From assembly GCA_016930175.1 (NCBI GenBank), contig JAFGHJ010000006.1, positions 68,086 through 132,085 of the forward strand: a stretch of DNA of 64,000 nucleotides. Reading direction: 5' to 3'. Positions 2,858 through 62,263 of the stretch are shown here, piece after piece. The DNA is from a candidate division WOR-3 bacterium (lineage in GTDB: Bacteria; Hydrothermota; UBA3072). The stretch's first letter is position 1. Each line of letters starts with the position of its first letter. The position numbers were made by a program, and so were the translations under genes. The notes beneath the pieces were generated by a model. The model worked only from the letters and a program-made list of their open reading frames with translations. It did no database searches and was not told where the DNA came from.

Positions 2858-3985
2858 TCAGCCGCTTTGTTTCTTTTCTAAACTCGTCTTTTTAACTGTT
2901 CCATGTTTCCAGAACGGCAACTTAATGATTTCTCCCTCCGTAGCCGTATTTCTTATTTCGATCTCTACTTTTGTTCCCACTTTGTCATACGGCTTACTAA
3001 TATAGCCCAACGCAATGGAAGAGCCCATATTAGGAGAGTAATTCCCGCTTGTAATTATTCCTACCTCTTCTTGTTTTATCAATATTCTATTACCGTGTCT
3101 GGGAATTCTCTTACCCGGCACTAAAATCCCAACCAGTTTCCTTTTTACTCCCTCTTCTTTTTGTTTCAATAAAACGTCTTTCCCTATAAAATTTTTCTTA
3201 TCTAAAGAAACAACCCAGGATAGGTTCGCTTCCAGAGGAGTCGTTTCTGCTGTTATATCGTTACCGTAGAGGCAGTATCCCATTTCCAGCCTGAGTAAAT
3301 CCCTCGCACCTAAACCACAGGGAGAAATATCATATTGCTTCCCCTCTTTCATGATTCTATCCCATATTTTTTCAGCCTCACTGCTTTTACCGTAAACTTC
3401 AAATCCATCCTCGCCTGTATAACCTGTTCTTGAAAGTAAAACTGGTATGTCTAATATGTTTTCTTTTTTAGAATGATAAAATTTTAAATCTGAAGGGTCA
3501 TTTTTTACTATTCTCTTTATGATTTTTTCTGATAACGGTCCCTGTAAAGCGATTTGAAAATAATTTTCGCTGACGTTCTGAACTTCTACGCCACCGTTTT
3601 CATGCTTCTTGATCCAGTCGAAATCTTTTTTCTGGTTTGATGCATTTACCACTATCAAATATTTCTCCTCAAGCTTATAGATTAGAAGGTCATCTATTAT
3701 TCCTCCTCTTTCATTCAACATTACGGTATATTTTGCCTGAAAATCTTTGATTTTAGATATATCAAATGTTACGAGGCAGTTAATAAATTCTGTTGCATTG
3801 TCGCCAGAAACCTCGATTTCACCCATATGAGACACATCAAATAATCCCGCAGAATTCCGCACAGCTTTTGTCTCTTTAAATATGGATGAATATTGCATAG
3901 GCATTCTGTAATTAGCAAAGTCTACAATATTAGCATTTAACTCCACGTGTTTCTTGTATAGAGGTGTTTTGTTTTTTTCTTCCAT
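2858..3985 (-). CDS. gcvT: Aminomethyltransferase (glycine cleavage T protein)
   Basis: 375 aa with the GcvT-family fold. First gene of the gcvT-H-PA cluster. Confidence 0.85.
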   Translation of the reverse strand: MEEKNKTPLYKKHVELNANIVDFANYRMPMQYSSIFKETKAVRNSAGLFDVSHMGEIEVSGDNATEFINCLVTFDISKIKDFQAKYTVMLNERGGIIDDLLIYKLEEKYLIVVNASNQKKDFDWIKKHENGGVEVQNVSENYFQIALQGPLSEKIIKRIVKNDPSDLKFYHSKKENILDIPVLLSRTGYTGEDGFEVYGKSSEAEKIWDRIMKEGKQYDISPCGLGARDLLRLEMGYCLYGNDITAETTPLEANLSWVVSLDKKNFIGKDVLLKQKEEGVKRKLVGILVPGKRIPRHGNRILIKQEEVGIITSGNYSPNMGSSIALGYISKPYDKVGTKVEIEIRNTATEGEIIKLPFWKHGTVKKTSLEKKQSG

Positions 3986-50181: not shown

Positions 50182-50224
50182 TGTTTTTTCCCTTTTGAAC
50201 TTAAGTTAACTTTTATTATTTGAA

Positions 50225-50540
50225 AATCAACCCACCCCACACCATTTTTTTGCCACAGAGCGCACAGAGGAAAAACAAACACACAGAGAAAAGAAAAAAA
50301 AGAAGTTGTGTTGTGTAAAGCCCACCACACAGCCCCAAATTAATCTCACACAGAGGACACTAAGTACACAAAGTTTTTCTTTGTTTTTTCTTGAGCCCTT
50401 GAAACCTCGAAACCTTAATTAAACAACAGAGGCAACAGAGAAAAAAGGAAATTGTATTATTTAAAATCCTGCACTCCCCACCTTATTAATCTTACACAGA
50501 GACACGGAGAACACGGAGCCGCCCCGCACAACAAAATTAA
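50225..50540 (-). repeat. Two minus-oriented members of the CTCTGTG / A-run / G-rich composite repeat family, at the trailer end of the CRISPR array
   Basis: On the + strand: cccaccccacaccatttttttgccacagagcgcacagaggaaaaacaaacacacagagaaaag at 50239-50300 and ctccccacc...cacagagacacggagaacacggag at 50487-50520. These are reverse complements of CTCTGTG..CTCTGTGG + A-run + GGGG..GGG, as seen at 41420 and 62590. Confidence 0.45.
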
Positions 50541-50772
50541 TATTATTATTAAAACCCTCAACTCATCCCAGAATCAGAAACAACAAATCACACGAATAAC
50601 ACGAATCAAAATTTTGTTTTTCCCTACTTTCCATGAAGTTTATAAGAGGGGGAAAAAACAGAGAACTTCGCCTCACCGTCATAAATTGTTCACGGATTTT
50701 TTATTGTTTTCTTTAACTCGAAACTATAAAAAAGGAACTCAAAACAAGATCTTTTTTGCTTTTTCTATACAA

Positions 50773-53504
50773 GATTCAATTCCTCATAGGTAGGATTGGA
50801 AGAGGATATGTAGAAGCTGACGCCGAGATCGCAGTCAAATTTCAATTCCTCATAGGTAGGATTGGAAGATATGGACTTTTATCGAACCAGACACGCTTGA
50901 TACGCATTTCAATTCCTCATAGGTAGGATTGGAAGTGTACGTTCCATGTAACAAGCGATAAGATATGATTTATTTCAATTCCTCATAGGTAGGATTGGAA
51001 GCGGGAAATAGAGCGTCATAATTTCTTCATAAACTTCATTTCAATTCCTCATAGGTAGGATTGGAAGATTCCCTACGCCACCTCCACCAATAAAATCTTT
51101 TAGATTTCAATTCCTCATAGGTAGGATTGGAAGCCGAACCCAAAAGAAAGAATCCTCTTGTTTTATATATTTCAATTCCTCATAGGTAGGATTGGAAGAC
51201 GGAATTAGATCTAATACGTTTGAAACAAAAATCATTTCAATTCCTCATAGGTAGGATTGGAAGTACCATTACCTAAAGTTATTGATTCTTTTATGTATGA
51301 ATTTCAATTCCTCATAGGTAGGATTGGAAGGAACCATCGGATTACCGTGTCCGGTTCCGGTCTTGTCTGATTTCAATTCCTCATAGGTAGGATTGGAAGT
51401 AAACAACCCCAAGAAGCCGCAGCCGAGCTTGCCCTGATTTCAATTCCTCATAGGTAGGATTGGAAGTTAAAGGATTGTCTCCCGCCACAACAGAATTACT
51501 CCATTTCAATTCCTCATAGGTAGGATTGGAAGTCAGGGTCGGTAGGGTCAAGGACAACCGCATAAACTCATTTCAATTCCTCATAGGTAGGATTGGAAGG
51601 TAAGGATCCATATCAAAACGCCAAAACTTATTAGGATTTCAATTCCTCATAGGTAGGATTGGAAGAAGACTTGATTCCGAACTTGCTATCATATTTATAT
51701 TTCAATTCCTCATAGGTAGGATTGGAAGATCAAATTTTTTCATTCTACCCCCTCGTCTTGGGATATTTCAATTCCTCATAGGTAGGATTGGAAGTTAGAC
51801 AAACTGGAGTCCCTATGAGCGTGTGTGAGATTTCAATTCCTCATAGGTAGGATTGGAAGTAATCATTCATATAGGAATGGTCGGAAGTAATAGAATTTCA
51901 ATTCCTCATAGGTAGGATTGGAAGCTTTTTTATTTTCTTGGCTACATTCATAAGCAATTTATTTCAATTCCTCATAGGTAGGATTGGAAGATAAAGTATA
52001 TCCGTACCCCAATCGGCACTACAAATATTTCAATTCCTCATAGGTAGGATTGGAAGAATTCCATGCACCGAGTTTACGCACCCAAAATGTATATTTCAAT
52101 TCCTCATAGGTAGGATTGGAAGGGAAGTTGTACTATATACCAGACACGCTTGATACGCATTTCAATTCCTCATAGGTAGGATTGGAAGCAATTCTCGCAA
52201 TCTTCGCAAGATGGTACTATCAAAATTTCAATTCCTCATAGGTAGGATTGGAAGGCTTTCATGCTTTCGCTATCCAACAGGGAAGCATCATTTCAATTCC
52301 TCATAGGTAGGATTGGAAGAAACTTATCCAAGCCGCTTTCGCCGCCGCTATTATCATTTCAATTCCTCATAGGTAGGATTGGAAGGGAACGATAGGAGAA
52401 CAAAATGAACCCGAATAATTGATTTCAATTCCTCATAGGTAGGATTGGAAGGCGGTGTAGTCCCTAAACTCTATTATTATGACAGATTTCAATTCCTCAT
52501 AGGTAGGATTGGAAGTATGTTTAATCCCGGTTTATATAATCCAAACAATAAGGATTTCAATTCCTCATAGGTAGGATTGGAAGGCGTAGACGATGTAGGT
52601 ATCTCCTTCAGTAGTAATGTATTTCAATTCCTCATAGGTAGGATTGGAAGCGTATGGATAACCCCATATTGTACCCGGAGCGTTGTTAGATTTCAATTCC
52701 TCATAGGTAGGATTGGAAGACGCTTATAATACAAACTCCACAAATATTTCTAAAATTTCAATTCCTCATAGGTAGGATTGGAAGATCGAAAAAGAACGGA
52801 AAACTTACAAAATGCGCGATTTCAATTCCTCATAGGTAGGATTGGAAGATAGTTCTGCGGGTCATATTCCGGTTGCTTACGATATTTCAATTCCTCATAG
52901 GTAGGATTGGAAGACAGTTAGGGGAATTCAAACACAGAAACGGAATATCATTTCAATTCCTCATAGGTAGGATTGGAAGGACTTAGCTCTCGCAACTTCT
53001 ATATGGCAATTCGAGCATTTCAATTCCTCATAGGTAGGATTGGAAGTGCCAAAGCAACGAATATGGCTGTTGAGGATGTTCATTTCAATTCCTCATAGGT
53101 AGGATTGGAAGAAGAGTCAGGTGTAAACCGACAAACTGTGTATCAAATTTCAATTCCTCATAGGTAGGATTGGAAGGCTGTTAGAGAATCAATACCGGTA
53201 TTTGCTTTTAGATTTCAATTCCTCATAGGTAGGATTGGAAGCAAACAGGTACACGAACAAGCCATACTGTTGCATCATTTCAATTCCTCATAGGTAGGAT
53301 TGGAAGGTACCACTTATCGCCTCTTTTCCGTATGCTTCCCATATTTCAATTCCTCATAGGTAGGATTGGAAGCAATAACACCTGTTTTTTTACGAGTGAT
53401 TCTTATTGCATTTCAATTCCTCATAGGTAGGATTGGAAGTGAAGAAGTCACAAACTCCCATTGTCCCTTGCTCCATTTCAATTCCTCATAGGTAGGATTG
53501 GAAG
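50773..53504 (-). CRISPR. CRISPR array with 42 repeats of 30 bp and 41 spacers of 33-39 bp. Consensus on the + strand is ATTTCAATTCCTCATAGGTAGGATTGGAAG.
   Basis: I counted the repeats directly, first at 50773 and last at 53475, with a period of about 66 bp. The first repeat is degenerate (GATTCAATTCC...), which marks the leader-distal end. That places the leader next to cas2, so transcription is on the minus strand: CTTCCAATCCTACCTATGAGGAATTGAAAT, ending in an ATTGAAAT-type handle typical of type I-B. Confidence 0.95.
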
Positions 53505-53667
53505 TCGTCGAGTATAGCTGTTTTAAGGGGTTCCTTTTTTGTCTTTTTATACAACTATACATAATAATATTGTAAGATTTTTTAAAGATTTTGTCAATAG
53601 TGAGTTTAGTGAGATTTTGTATGTTCGTCGGTTCTCTGATTTTTTTACGTTATTATAGGTCGACGAA
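53505..53667 (-). promoter_or_regulatory. CRISPR leader
   Basis: A 163-bp AT-rich non-coding segment between the cas2 stop and the first full-consensus repeat. The repeats adjacent to it are perfect, while the distal repeat is degenerate. Confidence 0.55.
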
Positions 53668-53931
53668 TTAAATAAATGAGGATATTTCACTTTTTTCTTT
53701 TCCCATTATTTCTTTATTCAAATATTTTGTGGTTCTCATCTTATAAAAAACAACCGAATCTTTATCTTTTTCTATAATTTCTTTCAAGTCAGCCTTTAAT
53801 TCTTCCAATTTAGCTTTTGTTATCTCTCCTTCAAATACCGAATTCTGTATCCAGTTAAGATATTTTCGGCAGGTTTTTAATACCTTTGCGACTCTGTCTT
53901 CTTCTATATCATACACGAGAATTAAATACAT
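53668..53931 (-). CDS. cas2: CRISPR-associated endoribonuclease Cas2
   Basis: MYLILVYDIEEDRVAKVLKTCRKYLNWIQNSVFEGEIT is the canonical Cas2 N-terminus. The start is at the internal Met; the listed ORF is extended to 54009 and would overlap cas1. Confidence 0.9.
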   Translation of the reverse strand: MYLILVYDIEEDRVAKVLKTCRKYLNWIQNSVFEGEITKAKLEELKADLKEIIEKDKDSVVFYKMRTTKYLNKEIMGKEKSEISSFI

Positions 53932-53938
53932 GGTTTCG

Positions 53939-54934
53939 TCACCATCTTGCCACCCACGGGCTATATTTTTTATCGCCAAGAAGGTGTTTTTCAATTTTAT
54001 ACGCTTCAAGACGTATTAATCTTCGGTATGAGACATTGCGTTTTAAATCGGGATGCTTTATGGTCTGTTCCATCCTATTGTCAAATTCCCTGAGATATGT
54101 TTCCCTTCCTTTATCGCTAAGGTAAGTTCCTTTCATCTTTGAATCAAAGTCGTCTTTGTTTATCATTTTCTTATTTATTAATGTGAATATTATTCTGTCT
54201 GCTATTATTGGTTTAAATATTTCCGCCAAATCCAGATTTAAAGAAAAGTTTCTGAAATTAGTAGAATGTAAAAATCCGATTCTCGGGTCGAGATGGGTTT
54301 TGTAAATTTCGCTTAAAGTCGCGATATAAATCAGAGAATTACCGAAACTTATTAAAGCATTAAGTCTATTTCTCGGCGGTTGTTTTGAACGCCTATCAAA
54401 GGAAAAATCTTCATTGTTCAGTATCGCGTCGAATGCCCCGTAATAAATATCACGACAGTTGCCTTCCATCCCCATAAGTTCCTGGATGTTGTTAACCTTA
54501 TAAATATTTTCTTTTATGTTTTCAATATTTTCAATCCTTTGTTTAAGATCAGAACCCCTGTTATTGTAATATCCGAGTACTTTCATAATATTTTCAATCG
54601 CGCCCTCGACAAATTTTCTCGCGATTTCAAGTCTTTTTTCTTTATCCTGATAAAAAGTCGCCTGCGCCAATATAGTGCATCCGGAATTGTTGTGTTCTCT
54701 CGGATAAAACGTTCCCGAATAATATCCGTAATAGTTGAAAAAGTGTAGTAAAATTCCCTGTTGAGAAATAAAATCGAGGAGTTTTTTATTGATGGAAATT
54801 TCTCCGAATATGAGTATCTCCTGTGTGTTTTCTACGGGGACATATTTCCTTTTGCCGTCTTCAGTTTCGAAATACAGGGTGTTTTGTCTTCTATGTAAAG
54901 TTCCGTTTGAAGTTACATATAAACTTTTCATCAA
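53939..54934 (-). CDS. cas1: CRISPR-associated integrase Cas1
   Basis: 331 aa. LYVTSNGTLHRRQNTLYFE at the N-terminus and a C-terminal alpha-helical catalytic domain, matching Cas1 of type I-B/I-A/III-associated loci. Confidence 0.95.
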   Translation of the reverse strand: MMKSLYVTSNGTLHRRQNTLYFETEDGKRKYVPVENTQEILIFGEISINKKLLDFISQQGILLHFFNYYGYYSGTFYPREHNNSGCTILAQATFYQDKEKRLEIARKFVEGAIENIMKVLGYYNNRGSDLKQRIENIENIKENIYKVNNIQELMGMEGNCRDIYYGAFDAILNNEDFSFDRRSKQPPRNRLNALISFGNSLIYIATLSEIYKTHLDPRIGFLHSTNFRNFSLNLDLAEIFKPIIADRIIFTLINKKMINKDDFDSKMKGTYLSDKGRETYLREFDNRMEQTIKHPDLKRNVSYRRLIRLEAYKIEKHLLGDKKYSPWVARW

Positions 54935-54940
54935 TTTCTC

Positions 54941-55453
54941 CTATGTGAAACAGAATTCAAAATATGCGCATTTTCTGCAAAATTTTGACCTTTTTAATTC
55001 CGGAGGAGTATCGAGTAAAATCAGTTCTTCGGTTTCGTTCACTAATTTTTTTATTTCTTCTTCTAATTCCGCATCGAGTTCTACGGTCTCTCTTTTTCTT
55101 TCTTTTGGCAAAAGCAATCTTCCTTTCGCTTCAAGCCCCATTTCTTTTAATCTGTAGAGATAATATGCTATCTGCATTATTGCCGCTTTTTTCCCGGCGG
55201 ATGATTTTTTGATTTCACATATCATCGGACTTCCTTCTGATTCTTCGATTAAATCGATTTTCATATTATCTATCGTTATAGATTTCTTTTGTCTCTTATA
55301 AGAAGTTTCATCTATGGTTCTTCCTATCGAAACATTTGAATAATCCTGTTCTGGATTTATACTTCTGCTCTGAAACCACGCTTTTCGTTTGCAAATGCAA
55401 TAGGCATTTATGAGGGAGGGGGTGATGTTGGATATCTGGTTATTCTGATGCAT
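54941..55453 (-). CDS. cas4: CRISPR-associated exonuclease Cas4
   Basis: 170 aa with the RecB-like nuclease core. The N-terminal Cys (YCICKRKAWF) and C-terminal CRKCAYFEFC form the Fe-S cluster pattern (DUF83). Confidence 0.85.
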   Translation of the reverse strand: MHQNNQISNITPSLINAYCICKRKAWFQSRSINPEQDYSNVSIGRTIDETSYKRQKKSITIDNMKIDLIEESEGSPMICEIKKSSAGKKAAIMQIAYYLYRLKEMGLEAKGRLLLPKERKRETVELDAELEEEIKKLVNETEELILLDTPPELKRSKFCRKCAYFEFCFT

Positions 55454-55570: not shown

Positions 55571-56263
55571 TCATGTTTGACTTATCTTTGAAAGTAAAGT
55601 AAAGTTTCTGTTTGCTGTTTCAATCTTGAAAGGTAGAAGATAGTACCGTTCTTTCCTTTTTGTTTTTGTTCGGTTATAAGTATTTACATTGTCAAAGCTG
55701 AGAGTTTCGTCAAAATCATCCATTATAGTAATCAATCCCGGGACAAGATTAGTAATTTTGTCATCAAGAAGTCTTGAATATTCTTTCCCTATATTTACAC
55801 TTTCTATAAATTTAATAAACTGAAAGAAGCATCCTTTCTTGCCGAAATAGTTTATCCGCGGAAACCACTGCTTCAAAAAATCTTTTGTTTTTTTGTTTTG
55901 AATCGTAACAGCGGTTTTCATATCCCCAGCAAGGTACACATATTCCCTGAATCCTACCGTGGGCTGAAAATTTATCTCTGGATGTTTTTTCTTTGTTTCT
56001 GAATGAGGCTCTTTTTGTATCTTCAAAAAACAGTTGTTCACTACTAATTTTTCTGGAAGAGAAAACCGTATATCTAAAGCTCTGATTAAGCTAAATTTAC
56101 CCATTGCTAATTGGAGTGAGTCATAAGTGATAATTGCATTTAGTAGCGCCATTTTTACCGCATACGGTGAAGGTGTGAGGAGGGTCTTGGCCCCAGAACT
56201 TGTGGCTTGACTCTGCTTCAGGGAGAAAAGAGTAGTTGGTCTAAAAACAGTTTCTAACCACAT
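55571..56263 (-). CDS. cas5: Cas5 (DevS/Cas5t-like) Cascade subunit
   Basis: 230 aa. The N-terminal FRPTTLFSLKQSQATSSGAKTLLTPSPYAVKMALLNA fits the Cas5 glycine-rich/RAMP N-terminal signature. It sits between cas7 and cas4. Confidence 0.6.
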   Translation of the reverse strand: MWLETVFRPTTLFSLKQSQATSSGAKTLLTPSPYAVKMALLNAIITYDSLQLAMGKFSLIRALDIRFSLPEKLVVNNCFLKIQKEPHSETKKKHPEINFQPTVGFREYVYLAGDMKTAVTIQNKKTKDFLKQWFPRINYFGKKGCFFQFIKFIESVNIGKEYSRLLDDKITNLVPGLITIMDDFDETLSFDNVNTYNRTKTKRKERYYLLPFKIETANRNFTLLSKISQT

Positions 56264-56276
56264 AAGTATACCTTCT

Positions 56277-57242
56277 TCATAACTTCAATGGTTCTGTGCT
56301 ATTTATAATAACTTGAAGTTTTTCAGCGAATTCTTTTGGGGAGAGAAAATTTTCAATGGTTATACTATCTTTTGCAATCTTATTAAGGTTTGCAGATATT
56401 TCTGTTATTTCCTCATTGTAGTTATCATTTAATGCGCTTATAGTTGGGGCAGGAATAGAATTCGACGAATAAGAAATCACTCCCTCAAAATTTACTATAT
56501 GGGGATTTTGTGTGTTTCTCATTGCTCCCGTAGGCTTTAGAAAAGTATAAAGAATGGATTTGAGCAATGCTTCATACCGTGATTGCCTTTCGTTATCATT
56601 AATGGCATAAGTTTTTGATATATCGTTGTATCCTATACGGCAGGTGTCAAAGTTAGAAACCAAAGCGTATATGCCCGAATTTGCAGGACGATGAAAAATA
56701 TTTTGTCCTATGTTTGCTCCTTCTTCTCCCTCACCAGTTTCTTTCCCTGCATTTGGGACAAGCTTAACATGGAAAAAATTCTCTGTTTTGCTTGCTTCTG
56801 GTAATGCAATAAGCCAACCAAACTCCGCTATAGATTTTCTGGGAAGATTTTTGTTGTTATTGGTTATAAGAATTCCTTCCATATCGTCAATAACACAGGT
56901 CTTTAATAAAAGTTCCATTACTTTCTCATCAGGATCTTCTTTTTTGAATGCTTTCGTAAATTTCTCGTCCCCGGTTATTCTGTTGGCATTGAAAACTTTA
57001 CAGGAATTGCAAAGTTTAAGTCTTGTTTCTTTGGCTACATTATATAGATGTTGTGCCTGAATGTGTTTTAACATATCTCCACTTACAGCATTCACTGTAA
57101 CTGGCTTTCCTTCTTTATCAATGATTGTCACCTGTCTGGTCAAAATTTGATTTCCTTCTCCCCCCTCATTATTAAGGGAATGCATATTAAGGGTAATTCT
57201 TCCGCTGATAGATAGAGAACTTATTCTTTTTTTATCTGCCAT
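56277..57242 (-). CDS. cas7: Cas7 (Cst2/DevR family) Cascade backbone subunit
   Basis: 321 aa. The N-terminus SGRITLNMHSLNNEGGEGN is the DevR/Cst2-type Cas7 signature. Confidence 0.75.
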   Translation of the reverse strand: MADKKRISSLSISGRITLNMHSLNNEGGEGNQILTRQVTIIDKEGKPVTVNAVSGDMLKHIQAQHLYNVAKETRLKLCNSCKVFNANRITGDEKFTKAFKKEDPDEKVMELLLKTCVIDDMEGILITNNNKNLPRKSIAEFGWLIALPEASKTENFFHVKLVPNAGKETGEGEEGANIGQNIFHRPANSGIYALVSNFDTCRIGYNDISKTYAINDNERQSRYEALLKSILYTFLKPTGAMRNTQNPHIVNFEGVISYSSNSIPAPTISALNDNYNEEITEISANLNKIAKDSITIENFLSPKEFAEKLQVIINSTEPLKL

Positions 57243-57261
57243 CTTAACCTCCTTTAGTGAG

Positions 57262-59043
57262 TTATTTGATTTTACTATTTTTTGTAATCTCTTCTTTTCT
57301 TTCTAAGGCATAGCCATAAGCAGTAAGAAGTTTTCCAACAACTGATGGACCATATTTATCTATAAGCTCGATAATATCCTTCATGTCTTCTGTCTTTACC
57401 GTTGCTCTGACTTTGCCAGAAGTGAAATCTTGAGGATGCTTTTCTACATACCTTGCTGTCTCAGCATTGTAAAGAGCAATAAATTCAGAGAGATATTCAA
57501 CGAGGTCTCTTTTGTATGGTGATTTTCTCTTCAAGTTTTGTGCTACTCCATAATGTACATCAAATCTTTTATCTCCTTTTACTTTTGCATACTGGGCGCC
57601 TATTGTTGAATTTCTTATTGCCTTTGCTATATTCTGAAATCCCTGTGATTCCAAAATAGGTTTGAACCTTTCTTCAGTCATAAAGACCTCCCTTAGGTTT
57701 TTAACTGTGAAAGTCTTAAGATACATTTTTCTTTTGTCTGTTTTTTTTCTATCTATGTCTTCTGTTAACAGAGAAGCATAATCAAAATTGAATTCAAAGA
57801 ACTCGTCCCAATTACCAGCGGAAAGAAATTGGCGGTAATGTTGCAACAACGAAGTAGTAGAGCTGTTTTCTTCTTTGATTTGTTTCATTATCTCTAAATG
57901 GTTGTTAAGAATTTTGATCCATTTTTTACCTTCTTCATAAGAACCTATTTCGATGAATTTCGGCAGTTTTAGATAACCAATATTAGCGATAGATTTATTT
58001 TGTCCCATGTTTTTTTGATAGGCGGTCTTGAACCCTTGAACAAGATTTTGAGGATTTAAACGTTTTGAAAATGATGGCCGCATATTTTGATATTCAGGTA
58101 AAAATTCGATTAGATTTTTTGTATAATAAAGAATTGCTATAATATCCATTTTAAATGGCTTATTCCCTACGACAAGAGGTTTGAAATTTTTATAGATAGT
58201 AGAAAGTCTCGTATACTCTATATTAAAAGGTTCAATAACGTAATATTTGGTATCCCAATCTTTATTACTTACTTTTATATCTTTTATTACCATACTATTA
58301 TAAATTCCTATTATCTTAAGGTATTCTTTAATCCAGAAAGAAGAAATATTACTTAGAGCAATAGAATTTGATTTAGGAAAATTCACCCCTTTTCCTTGAT
58401 GTGGATTGAATATTTGAAGAGCAGTAATTTTGTCAAAATTTAGATTATATTGTTTTGATAAATTTTTTAAATCTTCTTTCACATTTTCTTCATTATTCAA
58501 TGGCAAACTATAAAGAAGTAATATTTCTTTTAATATAAGATGGTACTGTTTTCTGTTCTTGTATACATTATTTAGAATTTTATGGTAACCTGTAATGTTC
58601 TTGGGATCACGAATTTTTGAGAAAATATCAAAATCGGGATGTGGTTTTTCAAGTTCCGCAAGCAATCTTGCTTGTTTGTTTTTATCTCTTTCTTTATGAT
58701 AAATTTCATCACGTCTTTTTTTGAATATATCTCTCTTTTCTTTTTCGTTTTCATAATAAATTATTTGTCCGGAGAGATCTCTATTTTTGTCCGTTTTTAT
58801 CTTTATATAAGGAAAAACAAAGTAATTAGTGTTTTTTACCATCTTTTCGGTTATATTAATGTTAGATGATACGCTATAATAAGCACCTTCATCCTTTATC
58901 TTTATATTTACGTTATCAATTTTGTTATTATCAAATATATGAGATAAGATTTTTGCTAAACCATAAGTTTCAAGTGTTTCTGAATAAGTCCCTGAATCTT
59001 TCGTAACAAAATATTTATTTTGATACATCTTTGTCCTCCGCAT
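57262..59043 (-). CDS. cas8: Large Cascade subunit Cas8 (Cas8b/Cmx8/DevT-like). Assigned by position and size only.
   Basis: 593 aa and AT-rich, sitting between cas3 and cas7, which is where the large subunit sits in Dev/Myxan-type I-B loci. I recognise no diagnostic motif by eye. Confidence 0.5.
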   Translation of the reverse strand: MRRTKMYQNKYFVTKDSGTYSETLETYGLAKILSHIFDNNKIDNVNIKIKDEGAYYSVSSNINITEKMVKNTNYFVFPYIKIKTDKNRDLSGQIIYYENEKEKRDIFKKRRDEIYHKERDKNKQARLLAELEKPHPDFDIFSKIRDPKNITGYHKILNNVYKNRKQYHLILKEILLLYSLPLNNEENVKEDLKNLSKQYNLNFDKITALQIFNPHQGKGVNFPKSNSIALSNISSFWIKEYLKIIGIYNSMVIKDIKVSNKDWDTKYYVIEPFNIEYTRLSTIYKNFKPLVVGNKPFKMDIIAILYYTKNLIEFLPEYQNMRPSFSKRLNPQNLVQGFKTAYQKNMGQNKSIANIGYLKLPKFIEIGSYEEGKKWIKILNNHLEIMKQIKEENSSTTSLLQHYRQFLSAGNWDEFFEFNFDYASLLTEDIDRKKTDKRKMYLKTFTVKNLREVFMTEERFKPILESQGFQNIAKAIRNSTIGAQYAKVKGDKRFDVHYGVAQNLKRKSPYKRDLVEYLSEFIALYNAETARYVEKHPQDFTSGKVRATVKTEDMKDIIELIDKYGPSVVGKLLTAYGYALERKEEITKNSKIK

Positions 59044-61456
59044 TTATAGATTGTTGGTCGCATAATCTTAATATTCTTACCAAAACAAAATATAAAAATG
59101 TTTCATCGGGCTTACCGAAGTTCACTGTATACTGGTTTAAATCTTCTTCATTATCCCATTTTCTAATCACCTCATTGTTTTTATCAAATTTGTAGAATGA
59201 AGATGCGTAATTTCTTATCATTTCTAAAACCAAATTAATCCCCTCTCTTTCAATCTGATAAGAATTGACCCAGTGAGAAGTCGCTGAATGGTGTTTTATT
59301 ATTGCAGAAGTAAGTGCCCTTGCTATAGTTTCGAATTCTTCATCGTCTTCCAAAATATCTTCCAAAATAGCAAAGGCTGCTATTGCTCCAATTCCTGCAT
59401 GTGGTGGTAGTTTTTTGGGCAATTTATCTTTGATAGAGTCAAAATCAGTATGTGCGAGTAGTTCTTCTCTGTTGTAATTTCCCTTTGCTTTCTGAAAATC
59501 GCCGGCAATTTTTTGCCATTTCTTGTTTAACTTCCCATAGTCGTGCATTATTAGCATAAATTTAATCATTTCGTCAATTGGGGTCGTGAAATTATGTTTA
59601 TGCCACAATTTAGAGAGAGGATAATGAATTTCATCTCTGAAATTGGTTTCATAAATCTTTATCATACTACTAATATGGTTTTCATAGGTTTCCTTTTTGT
59701 ATCCGAATAATTCTTTTTTCTCTGTTTCTTGAAGACTTGATTCTATAGTTTTGCTTTTCAAAAGAAAGTTCATCCCAATTTTACTGTTGTAATTAACGTA
59801 TTTAGGATTGAGGACAATCCTGGGATAAATCTTTATATCTTCTATAGAAATTTGACTCATTTTAAATCTAGCTATTTCGAAATCAGTAAAAATGTTGTTT
59901 TCTTCTATCAATGAAACAAAGGGCTCCACTTCTTCCTCGTCTACTAGTTCTTCAGTCCTTCTAAGTCTATTTATTAGGGTGTAAGGATTTATGGAAATAG
60001 CATCATAATTATACATAGGATAAAGGGGGCTTGTTTTTCTTAAGAAGATGACACTTGTGGAATTAATATCTCTTATCAAGTCTCGTCCAGTTCCTTTATC
60101 GCTTTCTTCCCAAGCTTTTTGTATGCGTCCAAAGTCAAAGCTTTTTGCATTTTCTATTTCTTTAATCTCTTTTTTGGTGAGAATTGTATTCACTATTCTT
60201 TCACCAGTGGCATAATTTATCGATTTCTCGTTTGCTAATTCTTTCATTGTGGCTATGCAGAGATTCTCTTCATATGGCAAATATGACTTATTTTTGTTTT
60301 CATTTTCTTGTACATTATAGACAAATATTCTTCCTTTTTCATTTTCAAATCTAGCACACCTCCCCGCTCTTTGTAAAAAGGAATTAATGGGAGAGATTTC
60401 TGTAAGCAACGTATCGCAGCTAATATCCAATCCTACTTCGATAACCTGAGTGGAAATAAGTATTGCTTCTCTGTCAAGGTTAGCTTTCTTCCCGAAGATA
60501 TTAAGGATTTTTTTCTCCTTGGCTGTTCGGTCTTTTTTCAAAAACCTCGAATGAATACAAATGAGTTCAAATTTACTTTTCTGCTCAAGTTCAAGATATA
60601 ATTTCTGTGCTTTCTCTACAGTATTACAAATAACTATAGTTTTCTTTTTATGCTCTTTTTGTATGTCAGTGGCCTCTAAATGCTTTTTTCTGACAACAAG
60701 TTCTTTTTCGTTTTTGAGTTGCGGTATAGAAATAAATTCATTTTCATCAAGAGTAACCGAATTACTCCCTAAAAATCTGTTGATTTCTCGAATAGTATTA
60801 TCGGAGATTGTAGCAGTCATAATACAAAAACGTGATAATTCTTTTAATTTTTTGAGAATATTCAAGGATGTTGTTAATGACCTTGTAGGGTCAAGAAGGT
60901 GAAATTCATCAAATATCAGATAGGAACCAATAATAGCACCTGCGTTTATATTGGCTTGTCTTTTTGACAAAGAATATGGAAAGCCAAGTATAGAACTTAA
61001 GGTTTGGTCAATAGTAGTGAAGATTATATCTGATTCAAAATATTTGTCGTTTGGCAATTCACCCGTTTGTAAAGAAACTCTTAATCCTGTTTCTTTAATT
61101 TTGCTATTACATGAGATCTCATTATAAAGACTGTTTGCCAATGTCCGAAGAGGCAAGGAGTAAATAATTTTTTTGGGAGAAGGGGTTCCCTCTTTATTAG
61201 CAAAAACAAAAGGAAGAATAGAAGCCCAAGTTTTCCCTGCGCCAGTTGGAGCTTTCAACAGAACGTTATTCATTTGTAAGTAGTTCTCAAATAATCTTTT
61301 CTGAAAATCGTATGGTTTAAAATTTGTAGTCTTTTCGAAGAAAGAAATATAACTATCTATATATTCCTGCATTAACAAATGGATTCCCACTAAAATTAAG
61401 AAATGACTTTTTCTCACCGTGGGAATTCCCCATAAACCTCCTTCTCTACTTACCAA
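59015..61456 (-). CDS. cas3: Cas3 helicase-nuclease with the helicase N-terminal and the HD domain C-terminal
   Basis: SF2 helicase motifs: motif I APTGAGKT, motif II LIFDEFH and motif VI QRAGRCAR, all in the first ~400 aa. HD nuclease motifs (LIMHDYGK, LLAHTD, PPHAGIGA, IIKHHSA) lie in the last ~200 aa. The exact start is uncertain because the RBS-associated ATG is out of frame. Confidence 0.85.
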   Translation of the reverse strand: MVSREGGLWGIPTVRKSHFLILVGIHLLMQEYIDSYISFFEKTTNFKPYDFQKRLFENYLQMNNVLLKAPTGAGKTWASILPFVFANKEGTPSPKKIIYSLPLRTLANSLYNEISCNSKIKETGLRVSLQTGELPNDKYFESDIIFTTIDQTLSSILGFPYSLSKRQANINAGAIIGSYLIFDEFHLLDPTRSLTTSLNILKKLKELSRFCIMTATISDNTIREINRFLGSNSVTLDENEFISIPQLKNEKELVVRKKHLEATDIQKEHKKKTIVICNTVEKAQKLYLELEQKSKFELICIHSRFLKKDRTAKEKKILNIFGKKANLDREAILISTQVIEVGLDISCDTLLTEISPINSFLQRAGRCARFENEKGRIFVYNVQENENKNKSYLPYEENLCIATMKELANEKSINYATGERIVNTILTKKEIKEIENAKSFDFGRIQKAWEESDKGTGRDLIRDINSTSVIFLRKTSPLYPMYNYDAISINPYTLINRLRRTEELVDEEEVEPFVSLIEENNIFTDFEIARFKMSQISIEDIKIYPRIVLNPKYVNYNSKIGMNFLLKSKTIESSLQETEKKELFGYKKETYENHISSMIKIYETNFRDEIHYPLSKLWHKHNFTTPIDEMIKFMLIMHDYGKLNKKWQKIAGDFQKAKGNYNREELLAHTDFDSIKDKLPKKLPPHAGIGAIAAFAILEDILEDDEEFETIARALTSAIIKHHSATSHWVNSYQIEREGINLVLEMIRNYASSFYKFDKNNEVIRKWDNEEDLNQYTVNFGKPDETFLYFVLVRILRLCDQQSINAEDKDVSK

Positions 61457-61480
61457 TCATTATTTGCAATTTCCGATTCA

Positions 61481-62263
61481 CTATTTACCATTAACTACCT
61501 CAAACATCCCAAACCCCTGGGGGTTTTTGGAGCCTATTCCCGCGTCCCAGGCGAGTTTTAGCATTTCCGGATGACTTTTGATTTTATATACTCCAAGCCA
61601 TCCTTTGATAACATATTTATCTTTATAATAAGTAATTTGTTCGCTCCTTTTACTCAATTTTTCGGGAATTATTTTAAGTTCGGAATCCGGCGGTTCATTT
61701 TTATATAATGCCCTGTACTTTCTTTTGATGTTTTCACCTACTAATTCGGGAAATTCTGATTCACGGGGGTGAAAATAATATGTTTTTTTCTTTCCGTTTC
61801 TGTCTTCTAAGGTTCTGTAAACGGTAACGGGCGAAATCATTTTTATAAGTATTTCTTCTTCAAAAACGGGAGTGATACTTATTTCGATGGAGTTTATATA
61901 TATCTGGTTTTCACCAAGCCTTATTTCCGGGTTTTTTAAAAGTTCAGTTGCATACGATTCGAGAAATTCGCTTTCGGGTGATGAAACCCATAGGTCGAAA
62001 TTATCTTTGAAGATTAAACTTTTGCTTTCGCTGTTGTAATTGCATTTTCCTTGAAGCCTCGAAAAAGTGAACATTTTAAAAGACCTTTTCCCATCTGTAT
62101 ATCCTTTATTGTGTAGAAAATCCGATAACTTATCTGAAATGTTGTTATATATGAAAGATTGAACGAGATAATTATAATTTACAGGAATTTTAAAAACACT
62201 ATTTAACGGCGAAAATTGTATCTTTATCCGCATATAACTATAGTAACTGTTTTTAATTGGCAT
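61481..62263 (-). CDS. cas6: Cas6 crRNA endoribonuclease
   Basis: 260 aa with a duplicated RRM/ferredoxin fold. The C-terminal glycine-rich loop GIGSKNPQGFGMFEV is the Cas6 signature. It is the first gene of the operon. Confidence 0.85.
   Translation of the reverse strand: MPIKNSYYSYMRIKIQFSPLNSVFKIPVNYNYLVQSFIYNNISDKLSDFLHNKGYTDGKRSFKMFTFSRLQGKCNYNSESKSLIFKDNFDLWVSSPESEFLESYATELLKNPEIRLGENQIYINSIEISITPVFEEEILIKMISPVTVYRTLEDRNGKKKTYYFHPRESEFPELVGENIKRKYRALYKNEPPDSELKIIPEKLSKRSEQITYYKDKYVIKGWLGVYKIKSHPEMLKLAWDAGIGSKNPQGFGMFEVVNGK

What the first reader, a model, noticed from the sequence alone, without database searches (positions are those of the whole stretch)
50869..52158. Two spacers share an identical 20-nt end but differ completely over the rest
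The spacer at 50869-50905 is atatggacttttatcgaACCAGACACGCTTGATACGC. The spacer at 52123-52158 is ggaagttgtactatatACCAGACACGCTTGATACGC. They share a 20-nt block at the same end, which is the leader-proximal end in the transcribed orientation and would be the PAM-proximal end. Overlapping protospacers from a single target would be offset, not co-terminal. Co-terminal identity with divergent remainders suggests PAM-anchored acquisition from two diverged variants of the same mobile element. This would be a record of a host-parasite arms race. A recombinant origin is the alternative.
Basis: seen in the sequence. Interest (0 to 1): 0.55.

Follow-up and report, generated by a model that had tools for sequence, protein, structure and literature searches.

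The report
Two spacers from one phage site
Two memory units in a bacterial CRISPR array share 20 bases because each was cut at the same recognition motif from a different variant of one patchwork phage gene, which is an expected and ordinary outcome.

Summary
Spacer 2 (50869-50905) and spacer 21 (52123-52158) of a 41-spacer array share ACCAGACACGCTTGATACGC at one end. The rest agrees at about chance level. The next-longest word shared by any spacer pair is 10 nt, and shuffled spacers reach 9-12 nt.

The array belongs to a type I-B-like cas operon and is read on the minus strand. The shared end is therefore leader-proximal. Five mapped protospacers all carry 5'-CCA or 5'-CCG at that end, so it is also PAM-proximal.

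The 20-mer is absent from the host genome outside the array. It occurs in uncultivated phage contigs, next to TGG (CCA on the other strand). There it encodes the conserved C-terminal PDTLDT motif of a small, highly mosaic membrane protein, just before the next gene's ribosome-binding site.

Three sampled phage alleles carry the identical 20-mer with unrelated sequence on both sides. That is the pattern the two spacers show. Spacer 2 shares 29 contiguous nt with one allele and spacer 21 shares 22 nt with another. No exact source was found for either.

CRISPR-driven escape (the "arms race") is not shown. The same scan noted a comparable double sampling in another genome. This is an ordinary case.

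The parts
50773..53504 (-). CRISPR array: 42 repeats of 30 nt (minus-strand reading CTTCCAATCCTACCTATGAGGAATTGAAAT) and 41 spacers of 33-39 nt. The repeat at 50773 is degenerate and marks the trailer end.
50869..50905 (-). Spacer 2 (37 nt), second oldest. On the + strand it reads in frame as IWTFIE-PDTLDT. It shares 29 contiguous nt with phage locus L070 and 29 of 37 positions with L048 and L059.
52123..52158 (-). Spacer 21 (36 nt), mid-array. On the + strand it reads in frame as (G)KLYYI-PDTLDT. It shares 22 contiguous nt with phage locus L069. No exact protospacer was found.
50886..50905 (-). Shared 20-nt block in spacer 2. It is the PAM-proximal (5') end of the crRNA guide.
52139..52158 (-). 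Shared 20-nt block in spacer 21. It is the PAM-proximal (5') end of the crRNA guide.
50936..50971 (-). Spacer 3, next to spacer 2. It matches phage locus L059 at 33 of 36 positions with a 5'-CCG PAM, about 1.2 kb from the spacer-2 site.
51400..51436 (-). Spacer 10. It matches phage contig G001 near 40.4 kb with a 5'-CCA PAM.
51729..51764 (-). Spacer 15. It matches another conserved gene junction (..SQDEGGE stop, GGGGGGAGAATGA) in several phage variants, with a 5'-CCA PAM.
52189..52224 (-). Spacer 22, next to spacer 21. It matches G001 at 34 of 36 positions (3017-3052) with a 5'-CCG PAM. That is about 3.5 kb from the spacer-2/21 site if the contig is closed through its 127-bp terminal repeat.
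53505..53667 (-). Leader, with a promoter-like site on the minus strand at 53597-53569 (TTGACA, 17 nt, TACAAT; 11 of 12 matches).
53668..55453 (-). Adaptation genes: cas2 (53668-54009), cas1 (53939-54934; passes the type I-B Cas1 model TIGR03641 at 468.6 bits against a cut-off of 304.1) and cas4 (54941-55453).
55571..62263 (-). Interference genes. A 230-aa ORF sits in the cas5 position with no family hit. Then cas7/DevR (56277-57242). A 593-aa ORF sits in the cas8 position with no family hit. Then cas3 (59015-61456, helicase first and HD last) and cas6 (61481-62263).

Best explanation
The two spacers are independent acquisitions by a Cas4-Cas1-Cas2 adaptation module of a type I-B-like system. 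Both were taken at the same 5'-CCA PAM, but from two allelic variants of one phage gene. The PAM lies just past the 3' end of a small phage membrane-protein gene. That gene's last codons (PDTLDT-LGGE) and the following ribosome-binding site and start codon form a conserved island of about 35 nt. The gene body upstream and the next gene downstream are swapped freely between phages. PAM-side cutting fixes the first base of a spacer, so both spacers start at the same nucleotide and read through the same 20 conserved bases. They then run into unrelated allele-specific sequence. Shown here: array orientation, PAM side and motif, the phage origin of the block, and natural alleles with an identical block and unrelated flanks. 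Inferred: that each spacer came from an unsampled allele of this gene, and that spacer 2 was acquired before spacer 21.
For: (1) The 20-nt co-terminal identity is far above chance.
(2) The cas6-cas3-x-cas7-x-cas4-cas1-cas2 genes lie on the minus strand next to the array, and Cas1 passes the I-B model. A leader promoter lies on the minus strand. The degenerate repeat is at the far end. The block is therefore leader-proximal.
(3) Protospacers of spacers 2, 3, 10, 15 and 22 all have 5'-CCA or 5'-CCG at that end. CCN frequency in the phage is 0.039, so five of five has P of about 1e-7.
(4) In the host assembly the 20-mer is found only in the array. It occurs in phage contig IMGVR_UViG_3300031551_000003 at the end of an 84-aa ORF, followed by TGG.
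(5) Homologues of that protein keep the PDTLD C-terminus, while the N-terminus and middle are mosaic.
(6) The exact 20-mer plus TGG occurs in L048/L059, L069 and L070. Identity among these is 100% in the block, 60-70% over the next 20 nt, and 13-40% (mostly 17-30%) in 10-nt bins on both sides.
(7) Spacer 2 extends the match into L070 to 29 nt, and spacer 21 extends it into L069 to 22 nt.
(8) In the frame set by the block, spacer 21 reads KLYYI-PDTLDT. This resembles the RYYE-, RYYK- and KYYE-PDTLD and MSI- and SII-PDTLDT alleles. Spacer 2 reads TFIE-PDTLDT, like the TFVE and YFIE alleles.
(9) Other alleles use different synonymous codons for the same motif. The exact identity therefore reflects shared descent of the segment, not protein constraint alone.
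(10) From the literature: Cas4 is reported to facilitate selection of PAM-compatible spacers in such systems (titles and abstracts of PMC5896167 and PMC6547450). CCN is the adaptation PAM of the Clostridioides difficile I-B system (PMC8406132).
Against: No sampled contig holds a full-length match to either spacer. The best are 30 of 37 for spacer 2 and 26 of 36 for spacer 21. Exact and back-translated searches for spacer 21's source found nothing. The protein-level resemblance of spacer 21's unique half rests on only five codons. The assembly of the array could not be checked against reads.
Confidence: 0.85

Rival explanations
1. Primed update. The old spacer-2 crRNA paired with its PAM, seed and first 20 nt on a recombinant phage. 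It could not complete the match, and this triggered primed adaptation, which re-sampled the same PAM site (spacer 21) together with nearby sites (spacer 22). This refines the main explanation rather than replacing it.
For: Spacer 2 is older than spacer 21 by array position. A 20-nt PAM-proximal match is the sort of degenerate target that primes type I systems (my own knowledge of the type I-E, I-F and I-B literature). PMC8406132 mentions primed adaptation in archaeal I-B systems. Spacer 22, inserted next after spacer 21, maps about 3.5 kb away in the same phage group, on the opposite strand. Spacers 2 and 3 are likewise neighbours in the array and lie about 1.2 kb apart in phage locus L059.
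Against: There are only one or two neighbouring spacers, so no strand or distance statistics are possible. Eighteen spacers separate 2 from 21. Naive acquisition at a favoured PAM site explains the data equally well. Priming in this system is untested.
Confidence: 0.2
2. Both spacers came from one phage genome that carries two paralogous copies of the conserved junction.
For: Short junction motifs do recur within single phage genomes of this group. The spacer-15 motif is seen at three junctions in L056.
Against: Every phage locus examined has exactly one copy of the 20-mer at up to 5 mismatches. This includes the whole 44.5-kb contig G001.
Confidence: 0.05
3. Artefact or in-array recombination. 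One spacer would be a chimera produced by assembly or by recombination between array units.
For: The contig comes from a draft assembly of 48 contigs and the repeats are identical. Reads could not be inspected.
Against: The unique halves match no other spacer. In the host they have only scattered 2-mismatch matches, which I judge to be chance level. Each junction between unique and shared sequence lies within 36-37 nt and any read would span it. Natural phage alleles show the same block-plus-unrelated-flank structure. Both spacers read in frame with the phage gene.
Confidence: 0.04

Closest known systems
Type I-B CRISPR-Cas adaptation with a 5'-CCN PAM (Clostridioides difficile I-B; PMC8406132)
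   Same: Cas4-Cas1-Cas2 module, a 5' CCN motif next to protospacers, spacers of about 36 nt, and a fixed PAM-side end with a PAM-distal end that varies by a few nt.
   Different: The gene order here is cas6-cas3-(cas8)-cas7-(cas5)-cas4-cas1-cas2, and Cas3 has its helicase first and HD last. The large subunit and Cas5 candidates hit no family model. Nothing here is tested experimentally.
Virus populations shuffled by recombination relative to CRISPR spacers (Andersson and Banfield 2008, as summarised in PMC2704941)
   Same: Related viruses share only short identical blocks because of recombination. Hosts hold spacers against different variants of one viral locus.
   Different: Here a single array holds two spacers anchored at one PAM. 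The breakpoint is a gene-junction island (C-terminal motif plus ribosome-binding site). Evasion is not demonstrated.
Conserved junction sequences in modular (mosaic) phage genomes (modular theory of phage evolution; my own knowledge)
   Same: A short conserved island at a gene boundary is flanked by interchangeable, unrelated modules.
   Different: The island here is also under protein-level selection (PDTLD motif) and carries the next gene's ribosome-binding site. Its role in recombination is inferred only.
Earlier scan note e1-2777163 (another genome): same invader site sampled twice
   Same: Two spacers of one array derive from the same site of a variable invader.
   Different: According to that note, the two copies there differ at scattered silent positions along the whole spacer. 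Here identity is a clean 20-nt block followed by unrelated sequence.

Membership tests
Type I-B CRISPR-Cas | Cas3 helicase-nuclease, the type I signature | tested here: met
   The 813-aa ORF at 59015-61456 hits Cas3 core (TIGR01587, 187.5 bits against a cut-off of 102), Cas3-like_C_2 and DEAD. The HD hit is just below its cut-off.
Type I-B CRISPR-Cas | Cas1 of the I-B subfamily | tested here: met
   TIGR03641 cas1_HMARI scores 468.6 bits against a cut-off of 304.1.
Type I-B CRISPR-Cas | Cas8b large subunit | tested here: inconclusive
   The 593-aa ORF at 57262-59043 is in the expected position but hits no Cas8 model in Pfam or NCBIfam.
Type I-B CRISPR-Cas | Cas5, Cas6, Cas7 and Cas4 present | tested here: met
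   Cas6, Cas7 (DevR/Csa2) and Cas4 pass their cut-offs. The 230-aa ORF in the Cas5 position has no hit, so the Cas5 part is unconfirmed.
Type I-B CRISPR-Cas | 5' PAM next to the leader-proximal spacer end | tested here: met
   Five of five mapped protospacers carry 5'-CCA or 5'-CCG.
Same-PAM sampling of a polymorphic protospacer | Both spacers start at the same PAM-adjacent base | tested here: met
   Both blocks abut the repeat on the leader side. In phage DNA the block abuts CCA.
Same-PAM sampling of a polymorphic protospacer | Natural target variants share the block and PAM but differ beyond it | tested here: met
   L048/L059, L069 and L070 show 100% identity in the block and about 13-40% in the flanks.
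Same-PAM sampling of a polymorphic protospacer | Full-length source protospacer identified for each spacer | tested here: not met
   The best matches are 30 of 37 and 26 of 36. Exact-pattern scans of viral, metagenome and genome collections found none.
Primed adaptation | An older, partially matching spacer plus clustered, strand-biased new spacers | tested here: inconclusive
   The older spacer exists. Only spacer 22 (about 3.5 kb away, opposite strand) and the spacer 2/3 pair (about 1.2 kb apart) bear on clustering.

The most novel reading that the evidence does not exclude
Spacer 21 is a primed 'update' of spacer 2. A recombinant phage kept the PAM, seed and 20 nt of the old target. The old crRNA could not destroy it but did prime adaptation, which re-captured the very same PAM site in its new sequence context. 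Conserved gene-junction islands in mosaic phages would then act as durable priming handles. They would let old spacers renew immunity against module-swapped relatives.
Probability: 0.2. Interest if true: 0.45.

Novelty: new member of a known kind. Interest (0 to 1): 0.25.

Why it matters
This is a clean natural example of two known processes working together. PAM-anchored spacer capture and modular phage recombination produce spacers that share an end and nothing else. It links the host to an uncultivated phage group that at least six of its 41 spacers target. It also gives the system's PAM (5'-CCN, here CCA and CCG) and its spacer orientation. It points to short conserved gene-junction islands as the parts of these phages that stay recognisable across variants. 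None of this would surprise a CRISPR specialist.

Tried and rejected
- Host origin of the block was rejected. The 20-mer, at up to 2 mismatches, occurs only at the two array positions in the 2.34-Mb assembly. In the host, outside the array, the unique halves have only scattered matches with 2 mismatches, which I judge to be chance level.
- Self-targeting and a resident prophage were rejected. The phage contig matches the host only at spacer 22. No spacer has a significant match elsewhere in the host.
- A second array was ruled out. The genome holds only this one.
- Exact source of spacer 21: a 21-mer across its junction was absent from viral contigs and genome contigs. The full spacer at up to 3 mismatches was absent from phage contig G001. 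A back-translated YYIPDTLDT pattern was absent from viral contigs.
- The 20-mer was absent from genome contigs. In metagenome contigs it was found only in the contig already known.
- Close relatives of the phage in IMG/VR: the 84-aa protein found only its own contig. The neighbouring 162-aa protein found relatives at 49% identity or less, which were too distant to help.
- Function of the phage protein: no PHROG match for three family members. The neighbour hits only a PHROG of unknown function.

Full report
**The observation**

The region holds a CRISPR array of 42 identical 30-nt repeats and 41 spacers at window 50773-53504. Only the repeat at 50773 is degenerate. Spacer 2 (50869-50905, 37 nt) and spacer 21 (52123-52158, 36 nt) both end on the + strand with ACCAGACACGCTTGATACGC. 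By my own count of the spacers printed, their remaining 16-17 nt agree at about 2 of 16 positions. In an all-against-all comparison on both strands, the next-longest shared word is 10 nt. In 200 shuffles of the spacer set the maximum was 9-12 nt.

**Orientation and PAM**

Downstream of the array on the minus strand lie cas2, cas1, cas4, a 230-aa ORF, cas7 (DevR/Csa2), a 593-aa ORF, cas3 and cas6.
- Cas1 passes NCBI's type I-B model (TIGR03641, 468.6 bits against a cut-off of 304.1).
- The 163-nt gap between cas2 and the array holds a near-consensus promoter on the minus strand (TTGACA, 17 nt, TACAAT).
- The degenerate repeat is at the opposite end of the array.
- Read on the minus strand, the repeat ends in ATTGAAAT, which resembles the usual 8-nt crRNA handle (my own knowledge).

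The array is therefore transcribed on the minus strand, spacer 41 is the newest, and the shared block is the leader-proximal end of both spacers.

I mapped spacers onto a phage contig and its relatives. Spacers 2, 10 and 15 have 5'-CCA at that end, and spacers 3 and 22 have 5'-CCG. CCN makes up 3.9% of trinucleotides in the phage, so five of five has a probability of about 1e-7. The shared end is the PAM-proximal end. CCN is also the adaptation PAM of the Clostridioides difficile I-B system (PMC8406132).

**Where the block comes from**

In the 2.34-Mb host assembly the 20-mer occurs only at the two array positions. There is no second array and no related prophage.

In IMG/VR the 20-mer occurs once, in a 44.5-kb contig with 127-bp terminal repeats (IMGVR_UViG_3300031551_000003). 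The metagenome scan returned the same contig. There it reads ...GAACCAGACACGCTTGATACGC TGG GGGGAGAATGA. This is the last codons (E-PDTLDT-LGGE-stop) of an 84-aa ORF with an N-terminal membrane helix. It overlaps the ribosome-binding site and start codon of the next gene. The array as a whole also hits this contig with spacers 10, 15 and 22.

**The target is a mosaic gene with a conserved end**

Protein searches recovered about 30 variants of the small protein from metagenomes. The alignments show interchangeable N-terminal helices, a middle part that varies greatly in sequence and length, and a nearly invariant C-terminal PDTLD(T/S) motif.

At the DNA level, the exact 20-mer followed by TGG is present in three unrelated contexts:
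- L048 and L059: ..STFVE|PDTLDT
- L069: ..KIMSI|PDTLDT
- L070: ..QYFIE|PDTLDT

Among these three, identity is 100% in the block and 60-70% over the next 20 nt (TGGGGGNGGAATGA). In 10-nt bins on both sides it is 13-40%, mostly 17-30%. This is the structure needed to yield two spacers that share their PAM-side 20 nt and nothing else.

Other alleles encode the same motif with different synonymous codons, for example CCC GAT ACC CTT GAT TCG. The exact identity therefore reflects shared descent of this short segment, spread by recombination, rather than protein constraint alone.

**Fit of each spacer**

Spacer 2 shares 29 contiguous nt with L070 and 29 of 37 positions with L048 and L059. Spacer 21 shares 22 contiguous nt with L069. 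In the frame fixed by the block, spacer 2 reads IWTFIE-PDTLDT, close to the TFVE and YFIE alleles. Spacer 21 reads KLYYI-PDTLDT, close to the RYYE-, RYYK- and KYYE-PDTLD and MSI- and SII-PDTLDT alleles.

Neither exact source is in the collections I could search. Counting the two unsampled sources, at least five sequence contexts of this block exist.

**Mechanism**

Shown:
- one PAM site;
- a conserved island next to it;
- allelic flanks in nature;
- two spacers anchored at that PAM.

Inferred:
- The Cas4-Cas1-Cas2 module cut each prespacer at the PAM side. Cas4 is reported to facilitate PAM-compatible spacer selection (titles and abstracts of PMC5896167 and PMC6547450). That Cas4 sets the exact cut position and the insertion orientation is my own knowledge.
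- The other end was trimmed to 36 or 37 nt.
- The two acquisitions came from two different phage alleles, spacer 2 earlier than spacer 21.

With 16 consecutive PAM-distal mismatches, the spacer-2 crRNA would probably not clear the spacer-21 phage (my own knowledge of type I target requirements). The two spacers are therefore not redundant.

**Rival explanations**

Two paralogous sites in one phage is unlikely, because every phage locus examined, including the whole 44.5-kb contig, has a single copy.

A chimeric or misassembled spacer is unlikely for three reasons. The unique halves match nothing else. Both read in frame with the phage gene. Nature shows the same pattern independently.

Primed re-acquisition triggered by the partial match of spacer 2 is possible. 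Spacer 22, the next one inserted, maps about 3.5 kb away on the other strand in the same phage group. Spacers 2 and 3 likewise map about 1.2 kb apart. Two pairs give no statistics.

**Comparison with what is known**

The system works like, and largely qualifies as, a type I-B CRISPR-Cas locus with a CCN PAM. The large-subunit and Cas5 candidates hit no model, so those two membership points stay open.

The phenomenon is an instance of hosts holding spacers against recombinant variants of one viral locus. This was described for natural communities by Andersson and Banfield 2008 (summarised in PMC2704941). The same scan noted a comparable double sampling in another genome (e1-2777163).

The 'arms race' wording is not demonstrated. 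The divergence is PAM-distal and matches broad standing modular diversity of the gene across many samples, not a PAM or seed escape.

**Verdict**

The case is ordinary and of low to moderate interest.

Noticed in passing
L056:3425-3460, 3801-3836, 3938-3973; L048:1048-1083; L069:1000-1035; L060:3428-3463: Many genes of this phage group end in ..(Q/K)DEGGE or ..LGGE, with the sequence GACGAGGGGGGAGAATGA. This embeds the next gene's ribosome-binding site and an overlapping stop and start. The motif recurs at several junctions within one phage, and spacer 15 targets it. These islands may be preferred crossover points for module exchange.
   Followed up: partly
L048:333-587 (P0001) and relatives P0003-P0034: This is a family of small (54-167 aa) phage proteins, most with an N-terminal membrane helix. 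They have swapped N-termini, a hypervariable middle and a conserved PDTLD C-terminus. Three members tested have no PHROG match, and the function is unknown. In L060-L063 the gene directly follows an Mgm101p-type (PF06420) gene, a family I recall as Rad52-like recombination proteins.
   Followed up: partly
window 50936-50971 and 52189-52224: Array neighbours target phage neighbours. Spacer 3 maps about 1.2 kb from the spacer-2 site in L059. Spacer 22 maps about 3.5 kb from the spacer-21 site in G001, across the terminal repeat. In both pairs the second spacer lies on the opposite strand. This is compatible with priming or with several acquisitions in one infection.
   Followed up: partly
window 59015-61456: Cas3 has its helicase domains at residues 46-412 and its HD hits at residues 594-758, so HD comes last. 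The best subtype-specific hit is the I-G Cas3 model, far below its cut-off (192.7 bits against 400).
   Followed up: no
window 55571-56263 and 57262-59043: The ORFs in the Cas5 and Cas8 positions (230 aa and 593 aa) hit no Pfam or NCBIfam Cas model. They may be divergent subunits.
   Followed up: no
window 50200-50770: The trailer-side flank of the array is a non-coding stretch rich in CACAGAG- and CACACC-like words.
   Followed up: no
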